Positions 12,253 to 44,838 of a DNA stretch of 63,391 nt are shown here, piece after piece. The notes under the pieces were generated by a model. That model was given only the letters and a program-made list of their open reading frames with translations, searched no databases and had not been told where the DNA came from. Positions within the stretch are counted from its first letter, which is position 1, and the number at the start of each line of letters is the position of its first letter. Origin of the DNA: an uncultured Cytophagaceae bacterium (GTDB lineage Bacteria > Bacteroidota > Bacteroidia > Cytophagales > Microscillaceae); the NCBI GenBank assembly GCA_964551015.1, contig CAZKBP010000003.1, forward strand, positions 213,327-276,717. The letters are read 5' to 3'. A program made the position numbers and the translations under genes.

Positions 12253-12368
12253 ACTTCAAGTTTCGGGTGGCGAGAGGCAGGTGATAAGTTTTGAATTACG
12301 GTTATTTTTGTTCTTTGCAGGGAATCGCGAAATAGACCCCTTGCAACCTGAAATACAACTACAAAGAA

Positions 12369-14789: not shown

Positions 14790-14801
14790 AAAAATCCAAG
14801 C

Positions 14802-17219
14802 TTAATCTAAGCTCACCACGATTTCGTCTTCGCTCCAATCAATTTCTACATAAGCCAAACCAGAGACTACTTTGGAAAGGTCTTCGCTATCTTCGTAGGG
14901 GTCAAAATTAGAAATCGGCTCCACGAAGCGGTAGTCCATTTGGTGAATATCCAAGTCCAGACCTCCAGATTTGGGTTTCAAAGTATCTGGATCAAAACCG
15001 TGCAAATAAATCTTTGCTTTTTCAAAATGACTGCCCATTTGCCCCGTCTTGGCCTCGATGAGTAGCTGACTTTGAGCCGGCTCGTATCGTAAGATTCTCT
15101 GGTAGTATGCCTGTTGTTCATAGGCAAGTGTCTCCCCGTCGTCCTCGTAATAAGTGAAATTACTACCCGTATCACCTTGATAAAGATGAATTTCCAAGGT
15201 CTTTTCTGGTTTTTCGCCCGTGTGGCTAATGGGTGATTGCATCAGGAGCATACCACCTGCGCGTACGAAAGCTGGAATTTCGTCTTTGGCACATTCTACA
15301 AACATTTCTTGTGATCCTGTGTATTTTTGATCTACGAAGAGATGGTACCATTCACCTGCTGGCAAATAGATTTTATGATAATTTTGGCGACTATCCAGCG
15401 GGCAAATCAAGAGATTAGGACCGCAGAGAAATTGATTTTGATAAGTAGGATGATAGACCAAATCATCCCAAGTATAGTCCAGAGCCAAGGTACGACTAAT
15501 CGGTGCGCCCGTTTGGGAGGCTTCCCTAAAAAGCGAATAAAAATAAGGTAGTAAGCGATAGCGCAATTTGATAAAATTACGGGCAATCTCTTCGGCCTCT
15601 TCTCCAAAAGTCCAGGGTTCGGCATCTCGGCTATTAATCATCGTGTGGCATCGGAAAAAAGGCGAAAAAGCACCCCAAGCGACCCAGCGGCAGAATAAAT
15701 CTATGGAAGCTTCTCCCACGAAACCTCCTACGTCACAACCCGCGAAAGCGACCCCACTGAGTCCTAAGCTATTAATCAGACGCACATCTGAGAACATATG
15801 CTCTTCATAAGAAACATTATCTCCAGTCCAGATCGCGGCGTAGCGTTGCAAGCCAGCAAAGCCCGAACGGGTCAGGATAAAAGCTCTCCGATTAGGAGAT
15901 AACTTACTAACTCCCTCGTGCGTGGCGCGAATCATTTGTAAGCCGTAGATATTGTGGGCTTTTTTGTGTGTGGCTCCTAATCCGTCGTAATCAAATTCTA
16001 CCAGGTCGGGAAAGTTTTTGTCCCAAACGGCGGGCTCATTCATATCGTTCCAAAAGCCCTCGATTCCCATCTCCACGAGGCTTTGATAATAATCTCCCCA
16101 CCAAGCCCGCGTCTCTGGTTTTGTGAAGTCGGGAAAATGACACCATCCCGGCCAAACGGCTCCGGTGTATAGTCCTCCGTCTGGATATTTTACAAATAAA
16201 TCTTTGTCTTTACCCTCTTCATAACAATCGTAGCCCTCTTCTATCTTGATACCCGGGTCTACCATGGGGATTACGTGAAAGCCCTGCTCCTTGAGTTGCT
16301 TCACAAAACCGGCCGGATCAGGAAATCGCTCTTGGTGCCAAGTAAATACCTTGTAGCGTTCCATGTAGTGAATATCCAGATAGATGACATCGGCGGGAAT
16401 ATCTCGCTTGCGGAAATTTTCGGCCACATTCAATACTTCCTGATCGGGATAATAGCTATAGCGGCATTGCTGAAAGCCCAGACTCCACAAAGGGGGCATT
16501 TTCATTCTTCCAGTCAGCGCGGTGTAGGCTTCAACGATCTTGGTCAGACTTTCGTCGTGAATGAAATAATAGCGTAGCCCTCCCATACTCGCCTGAAAAA
16601 AGGAAAAACGGTCATTAGAAGCACCAAAATTAAATTTGGTATGGTAGGTATTGTCTAAAAAAATACCATAGGCGCTTGGCTGATGCAAGCCTACATAAAA
16701 AGGAATAGAAGCATAAAGTGGATCCGTATCTGGACCGTAGCCAAACTGATCCGTGTTCCAGTTGACGTACACGCGGCCTCGGCGGTCTAGATTACCGGTT
16801 TTCTCGCCAAGCCCTAAGAATCGTTCTCCTTCCTGTAATTTTTTATAGTTGGTGACTTCATCACCAATCCAAGCGATCCCTAAGCCGGGGTCGTCTTCAT
16901 TGAGCAAGTTCCCTTTTTTGTCCAAAAAGCGGATTCGCAGTGGATTTTTGTAAACAAATAAGTTGATTTTGTCAGTTTGAATCAAGTATTTATCTTCCTG
17001 CTCTTCCTGAGACCAGTCGATAGGTTGTGGCTCCATGACCACCGCATAGCTAAAGTCTTCAAATTCTTGGTCATTACGAACGGCGTGAATTTGAATAATC
17101 TCGTGGCTGTAAATGACGATTTTTAGCTTAGCTTCTACGGTCAGTATTTTAACATGCTGCGAAAAAGCCTTGTAATCAGTAATTCCCGTAAGGGAAATAT
17201 TCTGTGGGTCTTGTCTCAT
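14802..17219 (-). CDS. Glycoside hydrolase family 31 alpha-glucosidase
   Basis: It carries the GH31 catalytic nucleophile motif (GIEGFWNDMNEP), the WTGDN region and a Trp-rich TIM barrel. Length is 805 aa. Confidence 0.9.
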   Translation of the reverse strand: MRQDPQNISLTGITDYKAFSQHVKILTVEAKLKIVIYSHEIIQIHAVRNDQEFEDFSYAVVMEPQPIDWSQEEQEDKYLIQTDKINLFVYKNPLRIRFLDKKGNLLNEDDPGLGIAWIGDEVTNYKKLQEGERFLGLGEKTGNLDRRGRVYVNWNTDQFGYGPDTDPLYASIPFYVGLHQPSAYGIFLDNTYHTKFNFGASNDRFSFFQASMGGLRYYFIHDESLTKIVEAYTALTGRMKMPPLWSLGFQQCRYSYYPDQEVLNVAENFRKRDIPADVIYLDIHYMERYKVFTWHQERFPDPAGFVKQLKEQGFHVIPMVDPGIKIEEGYDCYEEGKDKDLFVKYPDGGLYTGAVWPGWCHFPDFTKPETRAWWGDYYQSLVEMGIEGFWNDMNEPAVWDKNFPDLVEFDYDGLGATHKKAHNIYGLQMIRATHEGVSKLSPNRRAFILTRSGFAGLQRYAAIWTGDNVSYEEHMFSDVRLINSLGLSGVAFAGCDVGGFVGEASIDLFCRWVAWGAFSPFFRCHTMINSRDAEPWTFGEEAEEIARNFIKLRYRLLPYFYSLFREASQTGAPISRTLALDYTWDDLVYHPTYQNQFLCGPNLLICPLDSRQNYHKIYLPAGEWYHLFVDQKYTGSQEMFVECAKDEIPAFVRAGGMLLMQSPISHTGEKPEKTLEIHLYQGDTGSNFTYYEDDGETLAYEQQAYYQRILRYEPAQSQLLIEAKTGQMGSHFEKAKIYLHGFDPDTLKPKSGGLDLDIHQMDYRFVEPISNFDPYEDSEDLSKVVSGLAYVEIDWSEDEIVVSLD

Positions 17220-19042: not shown

Positions 19043-22000
19043 TTAATCCGTAATCACGGCATTCGGCTGTTTGATAGGCAGGGTGATGATAAACTCTGTA
19101 CCCACGCCTGCTTCACTCTCCACCTCGATTTTCCCCTGATGTTTCTCGATGATGCTATGCACGATAGAAAGCCCCAGGCCTGTGCCTTCACCTACTTCTT
19201 TGGTGGTGAAAAAGGGTTCAAAAACACGCTTTCTAATTTCCTCGGGCATGCCCTTACCGGTATCGCGGATACGAATGAGGACAGAAGAGAGAGGGGCTTG
19301 ATCTGCTGACTCCTGATTGCTAGTTCCTGCCTGCTCAGTTTTAATAAAAATCTTTCCTTCTCCTTCAATGGCTTGAATGGCATTGGAAATGATGTTCATA
19401 AATACCTGATTAAGCTTACCCGGGTAGCACTCGATAGAAGGGATATGGCCATATTCTTTGACAATTTCCACACGGTTTTTGTACTGGTTGCGGAGAATGG
19501 ATAGGGTTGCGTCTAAATTCTCGTGCATATCCGCCATTTTGATATCGTCTTCATCTAGGCGGGAGAAGGTACGCAAGCCTTTAACAATCTCGGCGGTGCG
19601 CTCGGCTCCACGCTTGATACTTTCGGTCAGTTCGTTGACTTCTTCCAAGACTTCCTCGAATTCCATGTCTTCCTTCAATTCCATAATTTCCTTTAACTTT
19701 TCTTCTACATTTTGGGCGTCTACCTCTTCGTAATTCTCGAGCACTTCTATCAAATCTTGGATATTGGTTTTGAGCGAGCCAATGCCTGCGTAGACAAAGT
19801 TGATTGGATTATTGATCTCGTGGGCAATACCCGCGGTGAGTTGCCCGAGCGAAGCCATTTTATCGGCTTCTAGAAGTTGGGTCTGAGTGCTCTTGAGGTT
19901 ATCCAAGGTGGCTTGGATTTCTTCTTTTTGCTGATGAATTTGCGCCGTTTGCCGCTGTACCTCTTCTTCTAGTTCTTTTTTTCTTCTTTGGATTTGATTG
20001 ATACGATAGCGAGAAATCATATAAATGATGCCGACAAAAGCGATGATACATAGCGTCCAAAACCACCAAGTGAGCCAAAAAGGCGGTAAAATTTGGATGA
20101 CCAAGACCCTTCGCCCTGCTTTGCTCCAATCGGAGTTTTTGTTAATTGCTTCTACTTCAAAGACATAGGTAGCTGGATATAAATTCGTGTAAGTCACTAA
20201 GCGTTGGGTAGTGGTATAATTCCATTTGCCATCCTGAAAACCCAAGAGTCGATAGCGGTAGCGGGTTTTTTCGGGGTGTTTGTAATTGAGAGCCACAAAT
20301 TCAATAGAAAAAATAGACTGATGGTAATCCAAAGTGATCGTATCTGTCAGGGTGATATGCTTGGAGAGTACCGCGGATTCTTCTGTACTAATTTTTACGG
20401 ATTCATTAAAGATTTGAAAATCAGTCAGTACGACCGAAGGTGCCTCGATCTCCTTGAGGGCATTGACTCGAGCGGGATCAAAGTTGGTAAAGCCATTAAT
20501 GCCCCCAAAGAGCATATGGCCGGTTTTGCTTTTGAGGTAAGCACCCCCGTTGAATTCATTACTTTGCAAGCCATCAAATACATCATAATTGGCGATCACG
20601 GAATCTTGATCCAGACTTAATTGGAAAAGTCCTTTGTTGGTACTGATCCAAAGATAGCCACTCTCATCTTCTAAGATACCATAGGCGACATCATTGAACA
20701 GGCCATCGTCTTGGTCGTAGCGGGTAAATGTTTCCTGCTCGCGATCAAATTGGTTCAAACCGCCTCCGTAGGTTCCAACCCACAATTGTTTTCGGCTATC
20801 CTCGAAGACAGCCATGATGATGTCATTGCTGAGGCTGTTGGATTTTCGCTCATCGTATTGATAGCTATAGAATTTTTCTGTCTTGTAATCAAAGCGATTG
20901 AGTCCGCCGCCACGAGTGCCTACCCAGAGATTACCTTCACTGTCTTCGGCCAGGGCATAGATCGTGTTATGGCTGAGGCTAAGAGAATCTTTGGCATCGT
21001 GGAGAAAATGCCTAAAAGTATCGGTATCACGGTCTAAAAGACTCAGCCCCCCGCCCTTGGTGCCGATCCAGAGCTTGTTTTGAGAATCTTCATAAATGAC
21101 ACGGACGTTGGGATGTAGGAGTGCCTTCTTTGCCTGAGCATCTATTTGATTGTGAACAGGATAGGCTTTGAAATTCTGCCCACCCAGATATTTGAGTAAG
21201 CCTTGATTGAGCATACCCACCCAAATATTTCCCTGACGGTCGCGGTAGATTGTTTGCACGTCATTGTTAGGCAAATTAGAATTTTCTTTTCGGAAACCCG
21301 ACAGAATACGGTCTTGATTTACATCATAAATATCAATTCCGCCATTGTAAGTGGCTACCCAGAACTGATTGCTATCGGCGGGGCAAAACCCCTTGATGTT
21401 ATTGCTGGACAGCGAAGAGTTGTCTTGGGAAAAGTGGTGAAACATTCTTTGGGAAGGGTCATACTTGTTCACACCACCAATATAAGTGCCGATCCAGACC
21501 TGCCCTTGGTGGTCTGGATAAATATCAAAAATCAGGTTAGCATTCAGGCTTCCAGTTTTCTGTAAATCTTTCTGGTGATGAGACCAGTTGCCCGCTTGAT
21601 CTTTGACAAATAATCCCTGATTGCTCCCGACCCAAAGATTTTGTTCCTGATCCAATGCCAAGGTAAATATTCCCAATGAAGCAGTAGCATCTAAAGGTAG
21701 CTCTACTTTTTGTACCCGCTCTTGCTCAGAAACTTGCATCAGACCGTCCGTGGTGCCCACCCAAAGGTTTTGTTTTTGATCTCCCAGTAGGCTTAAGATC
21801 ACAGGGTAAGGTTCGGACTCGGAGAGAGGAAAAGCTTGAAAACGGGCGTGGCTAGCGTTCCACCGGAAGAGTCCCTGCTCGGTACCTGCCCAAATTTGAC
21901 CACCTGCATCTTCGGTGATTTCCTGTATTTGGGCAAGGCGAATGGTACGGAAAGTAATAGAGTCTAGGTTCTCATGCAACTTGGCCACGTAAGTTTGCTC

Positions 22001-22477
22001 GGGCGTGCTAATCCACAAGTACTCATTTTGATAGATGTAAAGATTTGAAATGTTTTTTTGGTGCAGGGATTGCGAGCTTGCCGGAGTCTCGGGAGTATAC
22101 TGAAACTGGTGTACAAAGGTTTGCTTTTCTGGGATAAAGATATTGAGTCCCTGGTCGGTTCCCACCCAGATTCTCCCCCAGCGATCCTCCACGAGCGTAC
22201 GCATATTATTAGCACTAATCGTATTGGTATCTTCGGGTGATTTTTTGTAAATCTTGAATTGGTAACCATCGTAGCGATTTAGGCCATCTTGGGTGCCAAA
22301 CCAGAGAAAGCCTAGGCGATCTTGCAAGATACAATAGACATGGCTCTGAGAAAGCCCTTCTTTGAGGGTAATGTGGTCAAACTCTAAGTTTATTCTCTGG
22401 GCAAAGAGAAGGGGAGGAGCCATCCCAAGGAAAATGATTAGTAAAAAAGACAAATAAACAAAAGAGCCTCTTTTCAT
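19043..22477 (-). CDS. Sensor histidine kinase with periplasmic two-component-regulator beta-propeller repeats and Y_Y_Y domain. No receiver or DNA-binding domain
   Basis: After a signal peptide come about 14 repeats of the (Q/R)G(N/Q)(L/I)W(V/I)GT type, a Y_Y_Y region ([15 protein letters not shown]) and a TM helix ([18 protein letters not shown]). A coiled coil, HisKA ([12 protein letters not shown]) and HATPase_c ([16 protein letters not shown]) follow, and the protein ends after the ATPase. Confidence 0.85.
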
Positions 22478-22689
22478 GGACTTTTGGGTTATGAGTTGTT
22501 GGTTTCCTTTCTAGGGCTTTCTTGACAATGGTTTCCAGCCCTAGCCGATTTGATACAACTGATTTTTGTGGATTCTGAATCTTGATTACTTACGTAAAGT
22601 TTGGCAAAAATCACCCCAATTTACGGAAAAAGAAAACATATTCGTAATGACTGCAAACGCTTTTCAGACGGTGTTGATGCGCTCGTGCA

Positions 22690-22860
22690 TGGCGTGAGAA
22701 ACTTTTTGTATGGTGTTAATGGATTCATCAGTGAGCTTAAAAACTTTTTAGATGGTGCTAATGGATTCATCAGCGGGCTTAAAAACTTTTTAGATGGCGT
22801 TGAAAGCTTTTTGTATGGTGCTAATGGATTCATCAGTGAGCTTAAAAAATCTTTTATCGA
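22690..22860. repeat. About four tandem copies of a 42-bp unit (AATGGATTCATCAGTGAGCTTAAAAACTTTTTAGATGGTGCT-like). It lies in overlapping ORFs on both strands (TTG-start 22601..23002 on +, ATG-start 22621..22833 on -)
   Basis: Seen directly. The + translation repeats FL(Y/D)G(V/A)NGFISELKN. The - translation repeats LMNPLAP(Y/S)KKFL(S/T)P. Which strand, if either, is coding is undetermined. Confidence 0.6.
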
Positions 22861-23086
22861 TAAAAACCTACTGCTAATCAGGGTTAAGCGAAAGTTCGAG
22901 TGTGTTTTTAAGCACTTATCTAAGTCAAGCCTAAATCTTCTAGAGGTGTTCTTAGCGATGTTTTCGCGGGGTGTAGGAAGAAAATTAGATGATTTTGGGT
23001 GAAACTGACTTTTGTCATTTTAATCCCAAGGCATCTCGGCTACCTTCGTACAAGATTAAACTTCTAACTCCTCAAAAACGATATTT

Positions 23087-25255
23087 ATGGAAGGGAAAGT
23101 ATTAACACGAGATACCCAACAAAAATCCTTAGACCTGCAGATTGAGAAGTTTAGCTACGATAACACAGTGGTCAAACTTTTCATCATCGCTACGGTGATC
23201 TTTGGAATCGTCGGCATGTCAGTCGGTTTGCTGATGGCCATTCAAATGTTCTATCCTGCTGCTAATTTTGGTATTCCTTATACTACTTTTGGCCGAATCA
23301 GACCTTTACACACCAACGCGGTCATTTTTGCCTTCGTTGGAAATGCTATGTTTGCCGGAGTCTATTACTCCTTGCAACGATTACTCAAAGCCAGAATGTA
23401 CAGCGATGCGCTGAGCCGTTTTCATTTCTGGGGCTGGCAAGCCATTATCTTGGCGGCGGCTATTACATTGCCCCTAGGATATACCACGAGCCACGAGTAC
23501 GCCGAATTAGAGTGGCCGATTGATATTGCCATTACTTTGGTATGGGTGGCCTTCGGGATCAACATGATCGGAACCATCCTCAAGCGTCGTGAAAGACACA
23601 TGTACGTGGCTATTTGGTTTTACATCGCGACTTTTATTACCGTGGCGATTCTACACGTATTCAACTCCATCCAGTTACCCATTGGTTGGTTCAAAAGCTA
23701 CTATGTATTTGCTGGGGTGCAAGATGCCTTGGTACAATGGTGGTACGGACACAACGCAGTGGCTTTCTTCCTGACCACACCTTTCTTGGGGCTGATGTAT
23801 TATTATCTGCCTAAGGCGGCCAATCGTCCGGTTTATTCCTATAAGCTTTCGATTATCCACTTCTGGTCCTTGATCTTTATCTATATCTGGGCAGGGCCTC
23901 ACCACTTATTATATACTTCACTGCCAGACTGGGCACAAAGCTTGGGTACGGTCTTTTCTATTATGTTGATTGCCCCTTCTTGGGGAGGAATGCTCAACGG
24001 TTTGTTGACGCTCAGAGGAGCTTGGGATAGAGTAAGAGAAGATCCGGTTTTGAAATTCTTGGTGGTAGCGGTTACGGCTTACGGTATGGCTACTTTTGAA
24101 GGGCCGATGCTTTCTTTGAAAAATGTCAACTGGCTATCGCACTATACCGACTGGACCATTGCTCACGTACACGTGGGAGGTTTGGGTTGGAATGGTTTTA
24201 TGATCTTTGGAGTACTTTATTGGTTGGTGCCCAAGCTTTGGGGAACTCAGTTATTCTCTCGCAAACTAGCCAATACACACTTCTGGCTAGGTACTTTGGG
24301 AATCATCTTTTATGCCTTACCGCTTTACATTGCTGGTTTTACCCAGAGTTTGATGTGGAAGCAATTCACGCCTGATGGATTCTTGGTATATAGTAACTTC
24401 CTACAAACGGTTACGCAAATCTTGCCGATGTACATGCTCCGTGCGGTCGGTGGAGCCTTATATTTGACCGGTGCTTTCTTACTAGCTTATAACCTTTGGA
24501 AAACCGCAACTCAGGGTAAATTTATCGCTAACGAAGAAGCACAAGCGCCTGCACTTGCCAAAAAATACGTGGCGAAGCCTAATGAGGGCTGGCACCACAG
24601 ATTGGAAAGAAGAGCCGTTCTTTTCACCGTCTTGACTTTTATTGCCGTGGCGATCGGAGGAATCATTGAGATTGTACCCACGATGATGGTCAAATCCAAC
24701 GTGCCTAGCATCGCTTCGGTACAGCCTTATACTCCATTAGAATTACACGGTAGAGATTTGTATATCCGCGAAGGTTGTGTGGGTTGCCACTCGCAAATGG
24801 TTCGTCCTTTCCGCGATGAAACCGAGCGATACGGTGAATACTCCAAAGCAGGTGAATTCGTGTACGATCACCCATTCCTATGGGGTTCTAAGCGTACTGG
24901 GCCAGACTTGCACCGCGAAGGTGGCCTGAGAAGCGATAGCTGGCACTACTTCCATATGTTGGAGCCAGAGCAAATGTCTCCAGGTTCTATTATGCCACCC
25001 TATCCTTGGTTGCTAGAAAATGATTACCAGACTTCAAGCATTATCCCGAAAGTTACGGCTATGCGTCAGTTGGGTGTGCCTTATCCTGAGGGTTACGAAG
25101 GTGAAGTAGAAGCCGAAGTACAGGCGCAAGCCGAGGCCATTGTGAAACGATTGGCAGAAGAAGCCAAAGTAAAGACTTCTCCTGATAAAGAAATCGTAGC
25201 CCTGATCGCTTACCTACAACGCTTAGGAACCGATATCAAAGTAGTAGAAGAATAA
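23087..25255 (+). CDS. ccoNO: cbb3-type cytochrome c oxidase, fused subunits I and II (CcoN-CcoO)
   Basis: 722 aa. The N-terminal ~470 aa form a 12-TM heme-copper oxidase subunit I with conserved His ligands (WAGPHHLLYT, TIAHVHVGG). The C-terminal part is a monoheme cytochrome c with CVGCHSQMVRPF (CcoO heme-binding CXXCH). This fused form is typical of Bacteroidota. Confidence 0.9.
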   Translation: MEGKVLTRDTQQKSLDLQIEKFSYDNTVVKLFIIATVIFGIVGMSVGLLMAIQMFYPAANFGIPYTTFGRIRPLHTNAVIFAFVGNAMFAGVYYSLQRLLKARMYSDALSRFHFWGWQAIILAAAITLPLGYTTSHEYAELEWPIDIAITLVWVAFGINMIGTILKRRERHMYVAIWFYIATFITVAILHVFNSIQLPIGWFKSYYVFAGVQDALVQWWYGHNAVAFFLTTPFLGLMYYYLPKAANRPVYSYKLSIIHFWSLIFIYIWAGPHHLLYTSLPDWAQSLGTVFSIMLIAPSWGGMLNGLLTLRGAWDRVREDPVLKFLVVAVTAYGMATFEGPMLSLKNVNWLSHYTDWTIAHVHVGGLGWNGFMIFGVLYWLVPKLWGTQLFSRKLANTHFWLGTLGIIFYALPLYIAGFTQSLMWKQFTPDGFLVYSNFLQTVTQILPMYMLRAVGGALYLTGAFLLAYNLWKTATQGKFIANEEAQAPALAKKYVAKPNEGWHHRLERRAVLFTVLTFIAVAIGGIIEIVPTMMVKSNVPSIASVQPYTPLELHGRDLYIREGCVGCHSQMVRPFRDETERYGEYSKAGEFVYDHPFLWGSKRTGPDLHREGGLRSDSWHYFHMLEPEQMSPGSIMPPYPWLLENDYQTSSIIPKVTAMRQLGVPYPEGYEGEVEAEVQAQAEAIVKRLAEEAKVKTSPDKEIVALIAYLQRLGTDIKVVEE

Positions 25256-25260
25256 AAACA

Positions 25261-25338
25261 GTTGTCCGGTTGTGGCTTGCTAGTTATGAGGGTAATAAAA
25301 CCCTCCAACGCGCAACTCACAACCGACAACCCGCAACT
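25261..25338. repeat. Palindromic element between ccoNO and ccoQ: outer arms GTTGTCCGGTTGTG / CACAACCGACAAC with an inner hairpin GAGGG-N8-CCCTC. The right arm continues into GCAACTCACAACC
   Basis: Seen directly. It has the same nested architecture and the same ACTCACAACC core as the element at 2429-2572. It ends 10 nt before the ccoQ ATG. Confidence 0.5.
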
Positions 25339-25348
25339 AAATAAAGCC

Positions 25349-25567
25349 ATGTTTAAACACTATTTCGAAGGAATCCAGAACGTAGAAATCTATCCGATTA
25401 TCTCTCTGATCATATTTTTCACCTTTTTCTTATTAATGATCATTTGGCTCATTAAAGTCAACCAAGGCTACATTGACAAGATGAAAAATATGCCCTTAGA
25501 ATCGGATGAAGAATTGGACCTAAAATCAAAAAACGAGCAAGAAAACTATGAACACGCTTCTTCATAA
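25349..25567 (+). CDS. ccoQ: cbb3 oxidase small subunit (CcoQ/FixQ-like, single TM)
   Basis: 72 aa from ATG 25349 (MFKHYFEGIQNVEIYPIISLIIFFTFFLLMIIWLIKV...), with one TM helix. Its position between ccoNO and ccoP fits. I discarded the track's longer start at 25262 because it lies inside the palindromic element. Confidence 0.6.
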   Translation: MFKHYFEGIQNVEIYPIISLIIFFTFFLLMIIWLIKVNQGYIDKMKNMPLESDEELDLKSKNEQENYEHASS

Positions 25568-26462
25568 ATCAAAAAATTTACTCAAAAAAGCAAGCCTAGC
25601 CACTGCCCTGCTCTTAGGTGGGGGAGTAGCCTGGGCGCAAGAAGCTGAGGAAGCTGCCGCGGCCGCTACTCAGCAAGCACAACTGTCCCAACAGGAGTGG
25701 ATGCTCCTGATGCTGATCGGTACTACGGTCTTTGTGACCATTCTGGTGCTCATCACGGTGCTGTACACCTTGGTGGTATTACGCCAGGTCGTCTTTAAGG
25801 AGATGAAAGGTAAGGAAGCACCCAGCCTTTGGGTAAGCATTGACAAGCAACTGACCAATGCCATTCCTCTGGAAAAAGAAGAGTCTATCATGCTGGACCA
25901 TAACTACGATGGCATCCGTGAGCTAGACAATCACTTACCACCTTGGTGGGTCTACTTGTTCTACGGTACGGTGGTATTTGGTATTATTTATATGTTTAAT
26001 TATCACGTGCTTGAGATCTCGCCTCTTTCTGATGAAGAATACGAAATCGCCATGGAGAAAGCCTCTTTTGAAGTAGCTGAATACAAAAAGCTAATGGCTG
26101 ATAACATTGATGAAAATAATGTAGAATTCCTCAGTGACGACTCCGAAGCACTGGCCGCAGGTAAAGAAATTTACGACAAAAACTGCGTGGCCTGTCACGG
26201 TGCCCAAGGCGAAGGAGGAACCGGACCAAACCTGACCGATGAGTATTGGCTTCACGGTGGGGATATCAAGCATATCTTCTCTACCATCAAGTATGGAGTA
26301 GCCCAGAAAGGGATGATCTCTTGGGAGAAAAAGCTTAAACCTGGCGATATGCAGAATGTGGCTAGCTATATCCTTAGCCTACAGGGAACCAACCCGCCCA
26401 ACGCCAAAGAACCACAAGGAGATCAATACGTGCCAGAAGAAGAGGAAGAAGCAAGTAAATAA
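25548..26462 (+). CDS. ccoP: cbb3-type cytochrome c oxidase subunit III (CcoP), monoheme form
   Basis: It has the CcoP N-terminal domain motif (HNYDGIRELDNHLPPWW) and a TM region. Only one CXXCH (NCVACHGAQGEGGTGPNL) is present, with a Met ligand region (KGMISWE). Confidence 0.8.
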   Translation: MNTLLHKSKNLLKKASLATALLLGGGVAWAQEAEEAAAAATQQAQLSQQEWMLLMLIGTTVFVTILVLITVLYTLVVLRQVVFKEMKGKEAPSLWVSIDKQLTNAIPLEKEESIMLDHNYDGIRELDNHLPPWWVYLFYGTVVFGIIYMFNYHVLEISPLSDEEYEIAMEKASFEVAEYKKLMADNIDENNVEFLSDDSEALAAGKEIYDKNCVACHGAQGEGGTGPNLTDEYWLHGGDIKHIFSTIKYGVAQKGMISWEKKLKPGDMQNVASYILSLQGTNPPNAKEPQGDQYVPEEEEEASK

Positions 26463-26468
26463 AAGCAT

Positions 26469-26909
26469 ATGCAACTGAGTGATGAGCAAATAGCATTAGT
26501 AAAAGATTCTTGGGTAACGCTCGTTACTCGCTATGAACAAGCCGGTCAGATTTTCTATGACCGGCTTTTCGAGAAAAATCCTGACTTGCGCTCGCTTTTT
26601 AAGCACGAAATGGAGACCCAAAATCGTAAACTTTTGTTTGCTGTTTCGCTCATTATCACAAAGCTTTCTAAACTGGACAAAGTCAAAGAAGAAATCAAAC
26701 ACCTAGGACGGCGACACGTGGATTATGGCGTGCTACCCAAGCATTTTGAACCCTTTGGAGAAGCTTTCTTAGCCATGCACCAAGAACTCTTGGGCGATAA
26801 ATGGACGCCCGAACTCGAGGCGGCTTGGGAAAAGGTATATCAGGTAATTTCCAAAGCCATGATCGAGCTGATCCAAGAAAAACGCGAAAACATGTCCTCA
26901 TCAAGCTAA
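26469..26909 (+). CDS. Single-domain bacterial hemoglobin (VHb/flavohemoglobin-globin-like)
   Basis: 146 aa. It aligns along its length with Vitreoscilla Hb. The B10 Tyr region is QIFYDRLFEKNPDLRSLF (VHb: TTFYKNLFAKHPEVRPLF). A distal Gln lies in METQNRKLL. The proximal His region is LGRRHVDYGV (VHb: VKHCQAGV), and the C-terminal LGDKWTPELEAAWEKVYQVI matches [20 protein letters not shown]. No reductase domain is present. Confidence 0.75.
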   Translation: MQLSDEQIALVKDSWVTLVTRYEQAGQIFYDRLFEKNPDLRSLFKHEMETQNRKLLFAVSLIITKLSKLDKVKEEIKHLGRRHVDYGVLPKHFEPFGEAFLAMHQELLGDKWTPELEAAWEKVYQVISKAMIELIQEKRENMSSSS

Positions 26910-26930
26910 TTGTTTCAAAAAGTCCTTTTT

Positions 26931-28376
26931 ATGGAAACCCTAGAAGAAATTATAGATAACGAAGAATACCGCGATAGTATCGCCACGGTAGACGGGGAAG
27001 GAAAGCGTATCTGGATTTATCCCAAAAAACCCAGCGGATGGTTTCATAACCGTCGTTTGATCGTATCAGCACTGCTGCTAACGGTCTTTTTTGCCACCCC
27101 ATTCATTTGGGTCAATGGGCATCCCTTTTTCCTCTTCAATATCTTCGAGCGTAAGTTTATTTTATTTGGGAATGTGTTCATGCCTCAGGATTTTCACTTG
27201 TTGGCTCTTTCTATGATTACCTTTTTCGTATTCGTGATTCTCTTCACGGTGGTCTACGGGAGGGTCTGGTGTGGCTGGGCTTGCCCACAAACGGTTTTCA
27301 TGGAGTCGGTCTTTCGTAAAGTGGAATATTGGATTGAAGGCGATGCCAAGCAACAGCGCCAACTCAACGCCCAAGCTTGGAACGGCGAAAAAATTAGAAA
27401 GAAAGTAACTAAACAAGCCATTTTCGTGGCGATTGCCGTTTTGATTGCGCATACGGCGATGGCTTATCTGATTGGAATCGATCAAGTAGCTCAGGTGGTC
27501 AGCAAGCCTCCAAGCGAGAATTTAACTGGCTTTATGGGGCTCGTAGCTTTTACCTTTATCTTTTATGGGGTTTTTGCTTACTTCCGAGAGCAGGCCTGTA
27601 TCGCAGTTTGCCCTTATGGTCGATTACAGAGTGTGCTTTTGGGGAAAGACTCTATGGTAGTTGCCTACGATTTTGAGAGAGGAGAGCCGCGTGGTAAGCT
27701 CAAAAAGAAAGCTTCCTCTCCTAACAACGGGAAAGCCCTTACGCTGGATGATTTGGAGAAGCCCAAAGGCGATTGTATTGATTGTAAACTTTGTGTGCAA
27801 GTATGCCCCACGGGGATCGATATTCGGAATGGAACCCAGATGGAATGTGTCAATTGTACGGCCTGTATTGATGCTTGCGATCAAGTGATGGAAAAAATCA
27901 AGAAGCCCAAAGGACTCATTCGCTATGCTTCTTTTAATAATATTGTTAATCAAACCAAGTTCAAATTCACGCCCCGCATCATGGCTTATACTGCCGTATT
28001 GATTGCTTTATTGAGCTTGGATGCTTACCTAATAGCCAGCCGTAGCCTGATTGAGGCCACCATTCTGCGCGTACCCGGCGCCATGTTTAATGAACTACCT
28101 AATGGAGATATTCGCAATATTTACAATGTACAAATTGCCAATAAATCCTTTGAAAATTTACCCATTAGCTTCAAGCTGAAAGAGGTCAAGGGAAATATCC
28201 AAGTGGCCGGAGAAGATTTTACGGCACTTAAAAATACCACCTCCGAAAGTGCTTTCTTAGTAGATATACCGCCTTCGGAGCTAGACGGACTCAAAACACG
28301 CATTGTGATCGAGGTCTGGTCGGGAGATGAATTGATGGAAACCGTTCGCACCAATTTCCTCGGGCCAGCCCAGTAA
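26931..28376 (+). CDS. ccoG: Cytochrome c oxidase accessory protein CcoG/FixG (membrane 4Fe-4S ferredoxin)
   Basis: It has TM helices and the CcoG-type Cys clusters CGWACPQ and CIDCKLCVQVCPTGIDIRNGTQMECVNCTACIDACD. The ATG at 26931 was chosen over the TTG at 26910 that abuts the globin stop. Confidence 0.85.
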   Translation: METLEEIIDNEEYRDSIATVDGEGKRIWIYPKKPSGWFHNRRLIVSALLLTVFFATPFIWVNGHPFFLFNIFERKFILFGNVFMPQDFHLLALSMITFFVFVILFTVVYGRVWCGWACPQTVFMESVFRKVEYWIEGDAKQQRQLNAQAWNGEKIRKKVTKQAIFVAIAVLIAHTAMAYLIGIDQVAQVVSKPPSENLTGFMGLVAFTFIFYGVFAYFREQACIAVCPYGRLQSVLLGKDSMVVAYDFERGEPRGKLKKKASSPNNGKALTLDDLEKPKGDCIDCKLCVQVCPTGIDIRNGTQMECVNCTACIDACDQVMEKIKKPKGLIRYASFNNIVNQTKFKFTPRIMAYTAVLIALLSLDAYLIASRSLIEATILRVPGAMFNELPNGDIRNIYNVQIANKSFENLPISFKLKEVKGNIQVAGEDFTALKNTTSESAFLVDIPPSELDGLKTRIVIEVWSGDELMETVRTNFLGPAQ

Positions 28377-28413
28377 TAAATTGAAATAATTCACCAAGAA
28401 AAACCTTAAAATT

Positions 28414-28917
28414 ATGAATTGGGGATATAGAATTGCATTAACCTACATTGGATTTATGGCTTTGATCCTGACGATGGTGGTGATGAGCCATCAGTACGAA
28501 GTCAACCTCATTGCCAAAGATTATTACAAACAAGAAATTGCTTACCAACAAGAAATTGAGAAAATGGTCAATGTAAGCCATCTCGATCACCAGTTAGATT
28601 TAGACTACAACGCGCAAAATCAAACTCTAGATTTACAAATTCCGACCGATCAGAGTGAAGGAGAAGTGGTTTTCTTTCGTCCCGCCACACGGCATCAAGA
28701 CCTGAAAATGCCCCTCGCCCTGGACGAAAAAGGCTTCCAAGCCCTACCTGTAGGAAATCTGGCTCGAGGACTGTGGCGCCTGAAAATCAACTGGAAATCA
28801 GGAGATAAAGCTTATTATGTAGAAAAACAACTACAAGTAAGCAAAGATGGCTCTGTGAAAATTCTCCGCTCGGGCAAGGGTCGCTCCGTTCCCGTAGAAA
28901 GAATGCCTAAGATCTAA
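28414..28917 (+). CDS. FixH/CcoH-like protein
   Basis: 167 aa with a single N-terminal TM helix (IALTYIGFMALILTMVVM), placed directly after ccoG as in cbb3 loci. Confidence 0.55.
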   Translation: MNWGYRIALTYIGFMALILTMVVMSHQYEVNLIAKDYYKQEIAYQQEIEKMVNVSHLDHQLDLDYNAQNQTLDLQIPTDQSEGEVVFFRPATRHQDLKMPLALDEKGFQALPVGNLARGLWRLKINWKSGDKAYYVEKQLQVSKDGSVKILRSGKGRSVPVERMPKI

Positions 28918-28991
28918 AGTTGTCAGTTGGCGGCTGTTCGCTATTTGTTTGAGTCTTTTCAGGATTTTATGTCTCAGTACTCATTAGAATT

Positions 28992-29714
28992 ATGCTTTTT
29001 TATTCTGCATTATTGGTTGGATTACTAGGAAGTTTTCACTGTGTAGGCATGTGTGGCCCCATTGCTTTTGCGCTGCCTCTCAAAAAGCGAAACCTCTGGC
29101 ACATCCTGTTGAGCCGTATCTTCTATAACTTAGGACGGATTTTTACCTATGCACTATTGGGTGGAATCGTGGGTTTAGCAGGAAGGGGGCTGCTCTTAAG
29201 TAGTTCACAACAATGGCTTTCTATCCTGATTGGGCTGGGAATTTTGGTTTTTTGGTTACTTCCGAGCAGCATATCGCACCGTTTTGGTTTTTTGCAGCCC
29301 TTTCAAAAGTTAAATTTTTGGGTGAAGCAAAAATTTAGTGCTTTGTTTCGCCAAAAAAGTATTTCCTCTTATTTACTCGTGGGTTTGTTGAATGGCTTTC
29401 TACCTTGTGGTTTGGTCTATTTGGCACTCGCTGGAGCCATTGCCACGGGCGAAGTAGTAGATGGAATGCTGTATATGGCTTTGTTTGGTCTGGGTACTTT
29501 CCCCACGATGCTGGTCGTATCTTTACTCGGTAATTTCGTAAAACCACGCTTCAAAAGCTTGATATACAAAAGGTTGTTGCCCGGTTTTACCATTTTGCTG
29601 GCCTTTTTGTTTATTTTAAGAGGATTAAATTTAGGAATTCCCTATATTAGTCCTGAGATTCATGTGCATCAAAGCCACGTAGAGGTGGAATGTTGCCACC
29701 CCTCATCCAAATAG
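28992..29714 (+). CDS. Polytopic membrane protein, TauE/SafE-like, with HCxxMCGP motif
   Basis: 240 aa with about 6 TM helices. The N-terminus is LLGSFHCVGMCGPIAF. A second Cys pair lies near the middle (LPCGLVYL). Confidence 0.5.
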   Translation: MLFYSALLVGLLGSFHCVGMCGPIAFALPLKKRNLWHILLSRIFYNLGRIFTYALLGGIVGLAGRGLLLSSSQQWLSILIGLGILVFWLLPSSISHRFGFLQPFQKLNFWVKQKFSALFRQKSISSYLLVGLLNGFLPCGLVYLALAGAIATGEVVDGMLYMALFGLGTFPTMLVVSLLGNFVKPRFKSLIYKRLLPGFTILLAFLFILRGLNLGIPYISPEIHVHQSHVEVECCHPSSK

Positions 29715-29936
29715 ACAATACTGAGTATTAAAGATAGGATCAGCTTGCATCGAGTACTTGACCATAGAAAAAGTCAGGCTGGTCTGGCCTCCACATCCCG
29801 TGGGGGTCTTTTTATTTGCTTACCGATCAGGTAGTTGAGCTATCATTTTCCTGAGAAAATACAAAGGCTGATTCCATGCGTGAAGAGTTAACAAATCTTG
29901 AGGGTATGGGCATCACTCCTTCATGAGCGAGTTTCA

Positions 29937-30854
29937 TCAGCTTTGTCGGTAAGCGGCTGGACTCATTCCCATGAGCTTTTTGAAAAAAGATGAAAAATGA
30001 TTGGGGTAATTAAAGCGAAGGCCATAAGCAATCTCTTTAATGGACTGATTGGTATTTTTGAGCTTAGCTTTGGCTAGACTAAGCAAATGATTTTGAATAT
30101 GCTTGGAAGCCGAAATATCGGTAATACGCTTGATCACTGCATTCAAATGATTAGGATGCATATGCATTTGCTCCGCGTAAAATTGGACTTGATGCAGATT
30201 CGCCTCGAGAGGGCTTTGATTGGGGTAAAAGGCTGTTTCCAACAAAGTTTTAAAGCGAGAAACTATATCTAAATCATTGTCCCGCTCCACCTGGCTATGG
30301 TTTTGGGCGGCAGGGTGGCGGTAGTAGAGGCGAGCTACTTTTCTGAGTAAAATACTGGTATGATAAAAAATAATCTCCTCACGGTGCGCTAAGCTTTGAT
30401 GGTACTCTGTGTAAATATCTTGGAAAGTATTAAAAAAATGCTTTGCTTCCTGTTCAGTAACCTCAAGGGGTAAAGTATTGTCATTAAGCAAGAAAGGAAA
30501 CTGCTCTGTAATACGCTTTGGAGGATGGAAACGGCGGTAAAAATCTTCACTAAACATAATGTAAAAACCTTTCCAATCGGGGGCGATGTCCCAGTGTAGA
30601 ATTTGGTAAGGAGAGTTGAAGAAGACCGTAGCTTTGAGGTCTTTGGTGTTATAGTTACCCGTGCTAGCGTAGCCGCTACCCTCTAGCTTGAGCGCAACCG
30701 CATAAAATTCGTGCTTAAAGGGAGGCATTCGTTGCCGGACGGTCTTCATGTTTTCCTCAAAGCAGCGCGTATCAAAATCGTCTTGCTTAGGAGCAGGAAT
30801 CCCAATGCCTTGGCAGTAAGCAGGCAGGGTGGAAAAATGTTGTAGGTCTGACAT
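29937..30854 (-). CDS. AraC family transcriptional regulator
   Basis: It has a C-terminal AraC HTH (IKEIAYGLRFNYPNHFSSFFKKLMGMSPAAYRQS) and an N-terminal ligand-binding region. Confidence 0.85.
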   Translation of the reverse strand: MSDLQHFSTLPAYCQGIGIPAPKQDDFDTRCFEENMKTVRQRMPPFKHEFYAVALKLEGSGYASTGNYNTKDLKATVFFNSPYQILHWDIAPDWKGFYIMFSEDFYRRFHPPKRITEQFPFLLNDNTLPLEVTEQEAKHFFNTFQDIYTEYHQSLAHREEIIFYHTSILLRKVARLYYRHPAAQNHSQVERDNDLDIVSRFKTLLETAFYPNQSPLEANLHQVQFYAEQMHMHPNHLNAVIKRITDISASKHIQNHLLSLAKAKLKNTNQSIKEIAYGLRFNYPNHFSSFFKKLMGMSPAAYRQS

Positions 30855-44764: not shown

Positions 44765-44838
44765 TGACCTCGCCAGGATTCTAACCTGGAACCTTCTGAT
44801 CCGTAGTCAGATGCTCTATACAGTTGAGCTACGAAGCC
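44765..44838 (-). tRNA. tRNA-Arg (anticodon ACG)
   Basis: Reverse complement: GGCTTCGTAGCTCAACTGTATAGAGCATCTGACTACGGATCAGAAGGTTCCAGGTTAGAATCCTGGCGAGGTCA. It folds into a 7-bp acceptor stem, D-arm (GCTC/GAGC), a 5-bp anticodon stem (TCTGA/TCAGA), loop CTACGGA (anticodon ACG) and T-arm (CCAGG/CCTGG). The T-loop reads TTAGAAT, with A rather than the usual C at position 56. Confidence 0.8.

What the first reader, a model, noticed from the sequence alone, without database searches (positions are those of the whole stretch)
26469..26909. VHb-like single-domain hemoglobin gene inside the cbb3 oxidase operon, between ccoP and ccoG
The 146-aa ORF aligns end-to-end with Vitreoscilla hemoglobin, with B10 Tyr, E7 Gln and proximal His conserved. 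It sits co-directionally in 6-bp and 0-bp gaps between ccoP (ends 26462) and ccoG (starts 26910/26931), so it is almost certainly co-transcribed with the high-affinity terminal oxidase. VHb has been proposed to deliver O2 to terminal oxidases. A hard-wired operonic link to a cbb3 oxidase would be genetic support for an O2-shuttling or NO-protecting partner of this oxidase. I cannot confirm from memory that this arrangement has been described.
Basis: partly seen in the sequence, partly recalled or inferred. Interest (0 to 1): 0.65.

Follow-up and report, generated by a model that had tools for sequence, protein, structure and literature searches.

The report
Globin gene inside cbb3 oxidase operon
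A small haemoglobin gene sits between two genes of the high-affinity (cbb3) respiratory oxidase operon, and this order is kept in several related marine gliding bacteria, which is genetic support for the old, unproven idea that bacterial haemoglobins work together with terminal oxidases.

Summary
ORF 26469-26909 (+, 146 aa) is a true 3-on-3 globin (Pfam Globin E=7e-21; AF2 pLDDT 87). TyrB10 (Y30), PheCD1 (F44), GlnE7 (Q51), LeuE11 (L55) and HisF8 (H83) are in place. It lies 6 bp after ccoP and 21 bp before the real ccoG start (ATG 26931), inside ccoNO-ccoQ-ccoP-globin-ccoG-fixH-dsbD_2.

"VHb-like" is only loosely right. The closest solved relatives are Methylacidiphilum HGbI/HGbRL and neuroglobins; VHb is about 25% identical. 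The VHb/flavohaemoglobin proximal His-Tyr-Glu triad is missing (F93, I135).

New here: the same ccoP-globin-ccoG order occurs in five further Cytophagales lineages, mostly Microscillaceae. These include cultured Microscilla marina ATCC 23134 and isolate AO1-C, and one MAG carries two tandem globins. Globin identity falls to 45-58%, synonymous sites are saturated, and the globin's non-synonymous divergence matches ccoP's.

In 77 other Bacteroidota cbb3 loci, the only gene inserted in that slot was again a globin, from an unrelated lineage (PA3967-like, L052). Other members of the same globin clade are not next to cco genes.

Function is inferred, not shown: an O2 buffer or feeder for cbb3 (favoured) or an NO scavenger. 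I found no paper describing the arrangement. Verdict: new variant of a known kind; interest about 0.6.

The parts
22478..23086 (+). Intergenic region upstream of ccoNO (presumed operon promoter region). It contains a 42-bp tandem repeat array from 22699 to at least 22797.
   Evidence: No promoter was demonstrated. The divergent sensor kinase gene ends at 22477.
23087..25255 (+). ccoNO: fused catalytic subunit CcoN plus mono-haem CcoO (722 aa)
   Evidence: Pfam COX1 E=1e-118 and FixO E=2e-97. 66-87% identical to the ccoNO of 70+ Bacteroidota loci.
25262..25567 (+). Small ccoQ-like membrane ORF (101 aa); overlaps the ccoP start by 20 bp
   Evidence: No Pfam or NCBIfam hit. It is conserved in position and sequence (49-64% identity) in related loci. 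The L094 counterpart has a weak FixQ hit.
25548..26462 (+). ccoP (304 aa; one cytochrome c domain detected)
   Evidence: Pfam FixP_N E=1e-20, Cytochrome_CBB3 E=2e-14.
26469..26909 (+). Single-domain 3/3 globin (146 aa), the finding. Y30 B10, F44 CD1, Q51 E7, L55 E11, H83 F8; F93 at G5.
   Evidence: Pfam Globin E=7e-21. PDB sequence hits HGbRL/HGbI/neuroglobin/VHb. AF2 pLDDT 87 with 7 helices. Foldseek top hit 3s1i, TM 0.85/0.95, rmsd 1.1 A. Residue mapping.
26931..28376 (+). ccoG (481 aa from ATG 26931), the cbb3 assembly factor with two 4Fe-4S motifs
   Evidence: TIGR02745 421 bits against a cut-off of 317. Pfam Fer4_18, FixG_C, Fer4_5. Start supported by the L002 homologue.
28414..28917 (+). 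fixH/ccoH-like (167 aa)
   Evidence: Pfam FixH E=1e-19.
28992..29714 (+). DsbD_2-family membrane protein (240 aa), the usual last gene of the Bacteroidota cbb3 cluster
   Evidence: Pfam DsbD_2 E=1e-50. Present after fixH in nearly all 80 related loci.
29786..29808 (+). Terminator-like hairpin (9 pairs, 6 GC, T-rich tail) after the last gene; likely end of the transcription unit
   Evidence: It is the strongest + strand terminator-like site in 22400-30000.

Best explanation
The ORF encodes a cytoplasmic haem-b single-domain globin with a 3-on-3 fold and a TyrB10/GlnE7 distal pocket. It belongs to the HGbI/neuroglobin-like branch of the M family. In one lineage of Cytophagales (mainly Microscillaceae) it has become a fixed gene of the cbb3 oxidase cluster, placed between ccoP and ccoG, so it is made from the same transcript and under the same low-oxygen conditions as the high-affinity oxidase.

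Most likely mechanism (inferred): the oxy-ferrous globin binds O2 tightly at the cytoplasmic face of the membrane. It buffers or facilitates O2 supply to cbb3 when O2 is in the nanomolar range. This is the logic of leghaemoglobin feeding the FixNOQP oxidase of bacteroids, and of the VHb-oxidase hypothesis, but hard-wired in one operon. NO scavenging by the same oxy-globin is a close second and may coexist.

Shown: globin identity, pocket residues, operon embedding, conservation of the arrangement, purifying selection. Inferred: co-transcription, haem and O2 binding, and any interaction with the oxidase.
For: Identity and fold.

Tight packing: 6-bp and 21-bp gaps. No + strand terminator-like hairpin lies at the junctions; the strongest lies after dsbD_2. 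No TAnnTTTG box anywhere in 24467-30052. Native base composition, GC 43.8% against 44.7% for the window.

Conserved synteny ccoNO-Q-ccoP-globin-ccoG-fixH-dsbD_2:
- L002/L003, globin 58% identical
- Microscilla marina ATCC 23134, L084, 47-48%
- L086-88
- isolate AO1-C, L103
- Microscillaceae MAG L094, with two tandem globins
5 of 5 looked-up members of the tight 14-cluster tier are embedded.

Selection: pS is saturated (0.72-0.85). Globin pN is 0.21-0.34, against ccoP pN 0.18-0.34 in the same pairs.

Second globin lineage in the same slot: in L052 a PA3967/1tu9-like globin (E=2.7e-25) sits 5 bp after ccoP and overlaps ccoG by ATGA. It was the only gene found inserted there among 77 loci with both ccoP and ccoG.

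When the cluster is split (MAG S19.Bin083), the globin stays 1.6 kb from ccoNOQP while ccoG-fixH-dsbD lies on another contig.

For reversible O2 binding rather than catalysis: the FHb/VHb/Cgb proximal His-TyrG5-GluH23 triad is replaced by Phe93 and Ile135 throughout the clade, as in neuroglobin, which has Phe at G5. The best structural match is oxygen-bound HGbI.

Background (own knowledge): leghaemoglobin supplies the FixNOQP oxidase in nodules, and VHb was reported to bind subunit I of cytochrome bo. A comparable co-regulation of an O2-binding hemerythrin-like protein with cbb3 is reported in Myxococcus (PMC12753109).
Against: There are no expression, spectral or kinetic data. TyrB10/GlnE7 pockets often give very slow O2 release, which suits NO dioxygenation or scavenging as well as, or better than, delivery. 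The best-validated role of bacterial single-domain globins and flavohaemoglobins is NO detoxification (PMC3820574).

The arrangement is rare. 0 of 80 sampled Bacteroidota cbb3 loci have this globin, including two Microscillaceae MAGs, L007 and L008. So cbb3 does not need it.

Many members of the same globin clade sit in unrelated contexts, so the family is not intrinsically oxidase-linked.

In M. marina and AO1-C the gaps are larger (77-268 bp), so co-transcription with ccoG is less certain there.

The O2-reducing site of cbb3 takes O2 from the membrane phase, so a soluble carrier may give little kinetic benefit in a cell of bacterial size.
Confidence: 0.42

Rival explanations
1. NO guard. The oxy-globin works as an NO dioxygenase or scavenger that keeps NO away from the haem b3-CuB centre of cbb3. 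That centre is most vulnerable when O2 is scarce. Making the globin from the oxidase transcript guarantees stoichiometric protection. The reductase that recycles the ferric globin is encoded elsewhere, or reduction comes from a generic donor.
For: The TyrB10/GlnE7/LeuE11 pocket is identical to that of flavohaemoglobins, Cgb and VHb. The best NCBIfam hit is the globin domain of the NO-inducible flavohaemoprotein. JGI labels close homologues 'nitric oxide dioxygenase'. Reviews state that oxy-globins protect haem-copper oxidases from NO, especially in hypoxia (PMC3820574), and that NO interacts with cbb3 oxidases (PMC8780969). S. meliloti fhb lies between nos and fix genes (PMC4648194). In L090 the displaced globin lies next to a DDAH-family gene, an enzyme family tied to NO metabolism in eukaryotes.
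Against: There is no reductase domain or adjacent reductase gene. The proximal His-Tyr-Glu triad thought to favour NOD chemistry in FHb/VHb/Cgb is absent (F93, I135). No NO-responsive regulator or nor/nir/nos genes were seen among the window genes annotated. Known NO-detoxifying globins are usually NO-induced from their own promoters rather than embedded in oxidase operons (own knowledge).
Confidence: 0.3
2. Co-regulation only. The slot between ccoP and ccoG is simply a convenient low-O2-induced expression site. The globin serves a general hypoxia function (O2 storage, redox or oxidative-stress buffering) with no specific relation to the oxidase.
For: Close clade members function in unrelated neighbourhoods: an enoyl-CoA hydratase, an ion channel, a saccharopine-dehydrogenase-like gene, and tandem globins next to a penicillin amidase. 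Related Microscillaceae cbb3 clusters lack the globin (L007, L008).
Against: The order is kept across six lineages while synonymous sites are saturated. A different globin family is independently present in exactly the same slot (L052). The globin stays beside ccoNOQP when the cluster breaks.
Confidence: 0.17
3. Assembly or sensing role. The globin acts with CcoG/CcoH in maturation of the oxidase. It could be an O2/redox sensor gating copper reduction, an electron partner of the CcoG Fe-S clusters, or a transient haem-b carrier for CcoN.
For: The gene lies immediately upstream of ccoG. In L052 the globin is translationally coupled to ccoG by an ATGA overlap, and that globin belongs to the PA3967-like group, which is classed with sensor-type single-domain globins (own knowledge). 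The electron donor of the cupric reductase CcoG is not established (own knowledge).
Against: In the split cluster, the globin stays with ccoNOQP, not with ccoG. In M. marina and AO1-C the gap after the globin (268 and 152 bp) is larger than the gap before it (77 and 104 bp). No signalling or transmitter domain is present. The pocket is that of an O2-binding globin.
Confidence: 0.08

Closest known systems
Hell's Gate globin I (HGbI) and the HGbRL globin domain of Methylacidiphilum infernorum (PDB 3s1i/3ubc, 3wfw)
   Same: These are the closest solved relatives by sequence (E=2.5e-22 and 9e-27) and by fold (TM 0.85/0.95, rmsd 1.1 A). They share the single-domain 3/3 globin architecture of about 135-146 aa and the same FY(B9-B10), Q(E7) and RH(F8) motifs.
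   Different: Identity is only about 32%. HGbI has Tyr at G5 where this protein has Phe93. I know of no cbb3-operon context for HGbI (own knowledge; not checked here).
Vitreoscilla haemoglobin (VHb)
   Same: Both are 146-aa single-domain bacterial globins. TyrB10, GlnE7, LeuE11, PheCD1 and HisF8 all align, with TM ~0.83. VHb is hypoxia-induced and was proposed to hand O2 to terminal oxidases (own knowledge), which is the functional idea the operon position supports.
   Different: Identity is about 25% and phmmer E=7e-11, so it is not the nearest relative. The VHb proximal triad His85-Tyr95-Glu137 is not conserved (Phe93, Ile135). vgb is a stand-alone gene with its own promoter and its proposed partner is cytochrome bo, not cbb3 (own knowledge).
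Leghaemoglobin with the rhizobial FixNOQP (cbb3) oxidase
   Same: The same functional pairing is proposed: a high-affinity O2-binding globin buffering O2 for a cbb3 oxidase with nanomolar Km (own knowledge). Leghaemoglobins are detectable sequence relatives (E about 1e-9 to 1e-7).
   Different: There the globin is made by the plant host and acts outside the bacterium. Here both are encoded in one bacterial operon and the globin is cytoplasmic.
Campylobacter Cgb/Ctb and flavohaemoglobins (Hmp)
   Same: Cgb and Hmp share the TyrB10/GlnE7 pocket. Hmp and Cgb protect respiration from NO, and Ctb was proposed to moderate O2 flux to cbb3 (own knowledge; PMC3820574 for NOD).
   Different: Those genes are not in the cco operon and are NO-regulated. 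Hmp carries an FAD/NAD reductase domain that is absent here (76 bits against a cut-off of 432). Ctb is a 2/2 truncated globin.
Canonical Bacteroidota cbb3 cluster ccoNO-ccoQ-ccoP-ccoG-fixH-dsbD_2
   Same: All six standard genes are present in the standard order, with 50-87% identity to 80 other loci.
   Different: An extra globin gene lies between ccoP and ccoG. 76 of 77 sampled loci have nothing there (gaps mostly under 260 bp), and one has a different globin.
Myxococcus xanthus NmpRSTU oxygen-utilisation regulon
   Same: A small soluble O2-binding protein is expressed together with a cbb3 oxidase (PMC12753109, PMC11841059).
   Different: That protein is a hemerythrin-like protein, not a globin. 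The link is a shared regulator, not the same operon.

Membership tests
Globin superfamily (Pfam PF00042), 3-on-3 fold | Profile match above the curated threshold | tested here: met
   E=7e-21, 75.3 bits against a cut-off of 22, covering residues 29-131.
Globin superfamily (Pfam PF00042), 3-on-3 fold | All-helical 3/3 sandwich of about 7-8 helices | tested here: met
   AF2 pLDDT 87, pTM 0.80, 7 helices. 313 PDB matches at E<=1e-3, and all 50 listed are 3/3 globins or flavohaemoglobin globin domains.
Globin superfamily (Pfam PF00042), 3-on-3 fold | Proximal His F8 and Phe CD1 | tested here: met
   H83 and F44 are invariant in 54 of 54 aligned relatives.
Globin superfamily (Pfam PF00042), 3-on-3 fold | Binds haem b and O2 | not testable with these tools
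   Needs UV-vis spectra of recombinant protein.
VHb / flavohaemoglobin-type M-family globins | Distal TyrB10, GlnE7, LeuE11 | tested here: met
   Y30, Q51 and L55 align with VHb Y29, Q53 and L57.
VHb / flavohaemoglobin-type M-family globins | Proximal H-bond triad HisF8-TyrG5-GluH23 | tested here: not met
   G5 is Phe93 and H23 is Ile135. The same holds in every Bacteroidota-clade member printed residue by residue (13 sequences) and Phe93 is invariant in the 14-cluster tight tier. Proteobacterial relatives and VHb keep Tyr at G5.
VHb / flavohaemoglobin-type M-family globins | VHb is the nearest characterised relative | tested here: not met
   HGbRL 9e-27, HGbI 2.5e-22 and neuroglobin 1e-13 all rank ahead of VHb at 7e-11. 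Foldseek gives the same order.
Flavohaemoglobin (Hmp) | C-terminal FAD/NAD(P)H reductase domain | tested here: not met
   The protein is 146 aa. The NF009805 hit covers only profile positions 2-142 of 399, at 76 bits against a cut-off of 432.
Truncated (2/2) haemoglobins | Short 2-on-2 fold | tested here: not met
   Full-length A-H helices. No trHb appears among the listed best sequence or fold matches.
Sensor-type single-domain globins (PA3967/1tu9-like) | Sequence similarity to PA3967-like globins | tested here: not met
   Window globin against the L052 PA3967-like globin: E=0.02-0.8. 1tu9 is not among the best 60 PDB hits listed for the window globin. The L052 protein itself is a member (E=2.7e-25).
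cbb3 oxidase gene cluster (ccoNOQP + ccoGH) | CcoN, CcoO, CcoP, CcoG and FixH homologues contiguous on one strand | tested here: met
cbb3 oxidase gene cluster (ccoNOQP + ccoGH) | The globin is a regular component of such clusters | tested here: not met
   0 of 80 sampled Bacteroidota loci have this globin type and 1 of 77 has another globin. It is present only in a tight tier of 14 protein clusters, with every named source in Microscillaceae or Cytophagales.
cbb3 oxidase gene cluster (ccoNOQP + ccoGH) | Co-transcription of the globin with ccoP and ccoG | not testable with these tools
   Only indirect evidence: 6-bp and 21-bp gaps and no terminator or -7 box. Needs RNA data.

The most novel reading that the evidence does not exclude
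The globin is a dedicated, physically docking accessory subunit or partner of the cbb3 oxidase. It would be an operon-encoded 'bacterial leghaemoglobin' that hands O2 to, or removes NO from, the enzyme. Two unrelated globin lineages (HGbI/neuroglobin-like in Microscillaceae; PA3967-like in L052) occupy the same ccoP-ccoG slot, which suggests convergent selection for a globin-cbb3 partnership and would be the first genetic proof of the long-debated globin-terminal oxidase coupling.
Probability: 0.22. Interest if true: 0.82.

Novelty: new variant of a known kind. Interest (0 to 1): 0.6.

Why it matters
Whether bacterial haemoglobins really cooperate with terminal oxidases has been argued since the VHb work of the 1980s-2000s, mostly from heterologous over-expression. 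Here the link is written into the genome. A globin is kept inside the operon of the highest-affinity oxidase over long divergence, and a second globin lineage occupies the same slot elsewhere.

Two carriers are cultured: Microscilla marina ATCC 23134 and isolate AO1-C. The question therefore becomes directly testable by deletion, nanomolar-O2 respirometry, NO challenge and interaction assays. If confirmed, it would define a natural O2-management module useful for engineering micro-aerobic respiration. It would also give a functional anchor for the large, uncharacterised neuroglobin-like bacterial globin clade (3,038 cluster representatives at E<1e-10).

Tried and rejected
1. The first screen of the 80 GTDB loci used tblastn alone with the window globin and found nothing. 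It missed the divergent L052 globin, which appeared only when oversized ccoP-ccoG gaps were inspected. A phmmer --max re-screen with three globin queries then found no others.

Frequencies from it describe a sample, not a census.

3. The metagenome scan with alignment A2 failed because the degenerate patterns produced 600 false stretches. A hand-made DNA pattern then gave 5 true globins, none next to cco genes.

4. The word-index search with the L052 globin returned only itself, so the spread of PA3967-like globins in cbb3 clusters is unknown.

5. dN/dS could not be computed because synonymous sites are saturated. Only pN against pS and the comparison with ccoP are reported.

6. The NJ tree of about 54 short globins is poorly resolved. 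One ancestral insertion cannot be distinguished from several.

7. The sigma-70 promoter scan is uninformative for Bacteroidota. The TAnnTTTG scan gives only absence of evidence.

8. Rfam found no RNA element near the operon.

9. Rejected ideas: horizontal-transfer island (native GC), flavohaemoglobin fragment or pseudogene (intact ORF, conserved, purifying selection), truncated haemoglobin (fold), and a second globin elsewhere in the window (none).

10. Single-sequence AF2 of the L052 globin gave a poor model (pLDDT 58). It was used only to confirm that 1tu9 is the top fold hit.

Full report
**1. The observation**

The window has an ATG-initiated ORF at 26469-26909 (+), 146 aa. The sequence shows the ccoP stop (TAA, 26460-26462), six bases, the globin ATG, and the globin stop TAA at 26907-26909. 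ccoG could start at TTG 26910, but homologues begin at the METLEE methionine, so ATG 26931 is the likely start and the downstream gap is 21 bp.

Pfam calls the ORF Globin (E=7e-21, 75 bits, cut-off 22). It calls the neighbours a fused CcoN-CcoO (COX1+FixO), CcoP (FixP_N, Cytochrome_CBB3), CcoG (Fer4_18, FixG_C), FixH and a DsbD_2 protein. NCBIfam confirms CcoG (TIGR02745, 421 bits). All are on the + strand. A small ccoQ-like ORF (25262-25567) lies between ccoNO and ccoP.

**2. What kind of globin**

- Against all PDB sequences the best hits are the globin domain of Methylacidiphilum HGbRL (3wfw, 9e-27) and HGbI (3s1i/3ubc, ~3e-22). Neuroglobins follow (~1e-13), then thermoglobin and plant non-symbiotic haemoglobins, with VHb only at 7e-11.
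- An AF2 model built on seven sequences has pLDDT 87 and pTM 0.80, with seven helices. Its best structural match is oxygen-bound HGbI (TM 0.85/0.95, rmsd 1.1 A), followed by neuroglobins, flavohaemoglobin globin domains, thermoglobin and VHb (TM ~0.83, 25% identity).
- In a multiple alignment with VHb, Y30, F44, Q51, L55 and H83 fall on B10, CD1, E7, E11 and F8. Four of the five are invariant or nearly so across 54 relatives; L55 (E11) is Leu in 49 of the 54, Phe in the other 5.
- Two proximal residues of the VHb/flavohaemoglobin His-Tyr(G5)-Glu(H23) triad are Phe93 and Ile135 here. The same holds in every Bacteroidota-clade member printed residue by residue (13 sequences).
- There is no reductase domain, no other globin in the window, and no compositional sign of recent transfer (GC 43.8% against 44.7%).

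The protein is thus a single-domain M-family globin of the HGbI/neuroglobin-like kind, and 'VHb-like' only in the broad sense.

**3. Is it one transcription unit?**

This rests on indirect evidence only. The gaps are 6 and 21 bp. No + strand terminator-like hairpin lies at either junction. The strongest + strand hairpin (9 pairs, T tail) lies at 29786-29808, just after dsbD_2. The Bacteroidetes -7 box TAnnTTTG is enriched in the window (79 against 52 expected) but is absent on both strands from 24467 to 30052. Co-transcription is very likely but not shown.

**4. Relatives and their neighbourhoods**

An exhaustive phmmer search of 1.84 billion cluster representatives gave 3,038 hits at E<1e-10. 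The nearest single-domain representatives are only 43-48% identical. Context look-ups gave these results:

| Protein | Identity to window | Source | Arrangement |
|---|---|---|---|
| P0002 | 58% | L002/L003 | ccoP (72%) - globin - ccoG (86%) |
| P0048 | 47-48% | Microscilla marina ATCC 23134 (WP_002698465.1, UniProt A1ZN75 'Neuroglobin') | ccoNO-Q-ccoP-globin-ccoG-fixH-dsbD_2 |
| P0061 | 46-48% | three metagenomes | same order |
| P0164 | 44% | isolate 'marine bacterium AO1-C', Cytophagales | same order |
| P0067 + P0083 | 45%, 44% | a Microscillaceae MAG | two tandem globins between ccoP and ccoG |
| P0088 | 42% | Microscillaceae MAG S19.Bin083 | ccoNOQP, two opposite-strand genes, then the globin; its ccoG-fixH-dsbD_2 lies on another contig (L006) |

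A profile of the embedded globins separates a tight tier of 14 protein clusters (204 bits or more) from the rest (176 bits or less). All five members of that tier that were looked up are embedded.

Other members of the wider Bacteroidota clade are not next to cco genes. These are P0075, P0068, P0089, P0069, P0084 and the five JGI loci L098-L102.

**5. How common is it among cbb3 clusters?**

A ccoG-seeded scan of one genome per GTDB species returned 80 Bacteroidota loci with 50-78% ccoG identity. None has a globin of the window type. In the 77 loci with both ccoP and ccoG, the apparent gap is mostly under 260 bp.

Inspection of the four largest gaps showed one real insertion, in L052. It is a 136-aa ORF 5 bp after ccoP, overlapping the ccoG start by ATGA. 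It is homologous to P. aeruginosa PA3967 (PDB 1tu9, 'structurally highly homologous to a human hemoglobin'; E=2.7e-25) but has no significant similarity to the window globin. So the only other gene found in this slot is again a globin, from a different lineage.

Two Microscillaceae MAGs (L007, L008) lack the globin.

**6. Selection**

Between embedded lineages the synonymous sites are saturated (pS 0.72-0.85). The globin's non-synonymous difference (pN 0.21-0.34) is about that of ccoP in the same pairs (0.18-0.34). The gene has therefore been kept intact, with its haem pocket, for as long as these oxidase genes have diverged. The tight tier also has its own signature positions: N52, L61, I62, N67, N71, N85, F100, M103, K122 and V123. 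The window protein is its most divergent member.

**7. Interpretation**

Shown: a bona fide globin gene is a conserved, selected component of the cbb3 cluster in one Cytophagales lineage.

Inferred: it is co-expressed with the oxidase and acts on the same problem, namely respiration at very low O2.

I favour O2 buffering or facilitated supply (confidence ~0.42). The pairing mirrors leghaemoglobin and FixNOQP, and the VHb hypothesis (own knowledge). The closest structure is an O2-binding globin. The catalytic-type proximal triad is missing. The globin stays with the structural genes when the cluster splits.

NO scavenging (~0.30) is nearly as good. The distal pocket is that of NO dioxygenases, and oxy-globins are known to protect haem-copper oxidases in hypoxia (PMC3820574, PMC8780969). 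Mere co-regulation (~0.17) and an assembly or sensing role with CcoG (~0.08) cannot be excluded.

**8. Novelty**

Full-text searches combining globin or haemoglobin with cbb3, ccoG, ccoP, ccoNOQP, Microscilla and terminal oxidase found no description of a globin inside a cco cluster. The nearest items are:
- co-regulation of a hemerythrin-like gene with cbb3 in Myxococcus (PMC12753109);
- conserved but unlinked globins in Tenderiales.

The library lacks most subscription papers, so prior mention cannot be ruled out, and the M. marina gene has been public for years. I rate this as a new variant of a known kind: a cbb3 operon with a built-in globin. Interest is about 0.6, because it offers a genetically tractable test of a long-standing hypothesis in cultured strains.

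Noticed in passing
L052 3597-4007 (JANNSF010000044.1, 'bacterium isolate SOY_31_metabat_245'): A PA3967/1tu9-like globin (136 aa), unrelated in sequence to the window globin, sits in the same ccoP-ccoG slot. The gap to ccoP is 5 bp and it overlaps ccoG by ATGA. A word-index search found no other homologue.
   Followed up: partly
L094 4447-4905 and 5001-5480 (Microscillaceae MAG; MCS6820771/MCS6820770): Two tandem globin genes (152 and 159 aa) lie between ccoP and ccoG. A tandem globin pair also occurs outside any cco context in L092/L093.
   Followed up: partly
L090 5001-5432 and L006 (both Microscillaceae MAG S19.Bin083, GCA_011390205.1): The cbb3 cluster is split. ccoNOQP is followed by two opposite-strand genes without Pfam hits and then the globin, while ccoG-fixH-dsbD_2 is on another contig. 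The globin's downstream neighbour is a DDAH-family (dimethylarginine dimethylaminohydrolase) gene.
   Followed up: partly
window 22699-22797 (continuing to about 22850): A 42-bp tandem repeat (2.4 or more copies, 91% match) lies in the intergenic region upstream of ccoNO and creates a spurious repetitive ORF. M. marina has unrelated 61-bp tandem arrays upstream of its ccoNO (L084 581-2316). Its function, regulatory or otherwise, is unknown.
   Followed up: partly
L098, L101, L102 (JGI metagenome contigs): A sister group of globins (44-48% identical to the window globin) is repeatedly adjacent to a 373/374-aa saccharopine-dehydrogenase-like gene. This is a different conserved neighbourhood for the same globin clade.
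   Followed up: partly
window 19043-22477 (-): A 1144-aa sensor histidine kinase with Reg_prop/Y_Y_Y propeller domains lies divergent from the cbb3 operon. An AraC-family regulator (29937-30854, -) lies just downstream. Whether either regulates the operon is unknown.
   Followed up: no
window 25262-25567 (+): The ccoQ-position ORF (101 aa) has no Pfam or NCBIfam hit, yet it is conserved in place and sequence (49-64%) across related loci. It overlaps the ccoP start by 20 bp.
   Followed up: partly
L004, L005, L006 (closest ccoG relatives, 76-78%): In these Cytophagales/Microscillaceae MAGs, ccoG-fixH(-dsbD_2) is not preceded by ccoNOQP, so the cluster is split in several lineages.
   Followed up: partly
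L012 5004-5920: ccoP appears split into two overlapping ORFs, which may be a frameshift or an assembly error.
   Followed up: no
window 10279-17219: A glycogen/alpha-glucan gene group: a GH13 branching-enzyme-like gene (CBM48), a GH57+DUF3536 gene, and a GH31 gene on the opposite strand.
   Followed up: no
window 44765-44838 (-): A single tRNA gene is the only Rfam gathering-level hit in the window.
   Followed up: no
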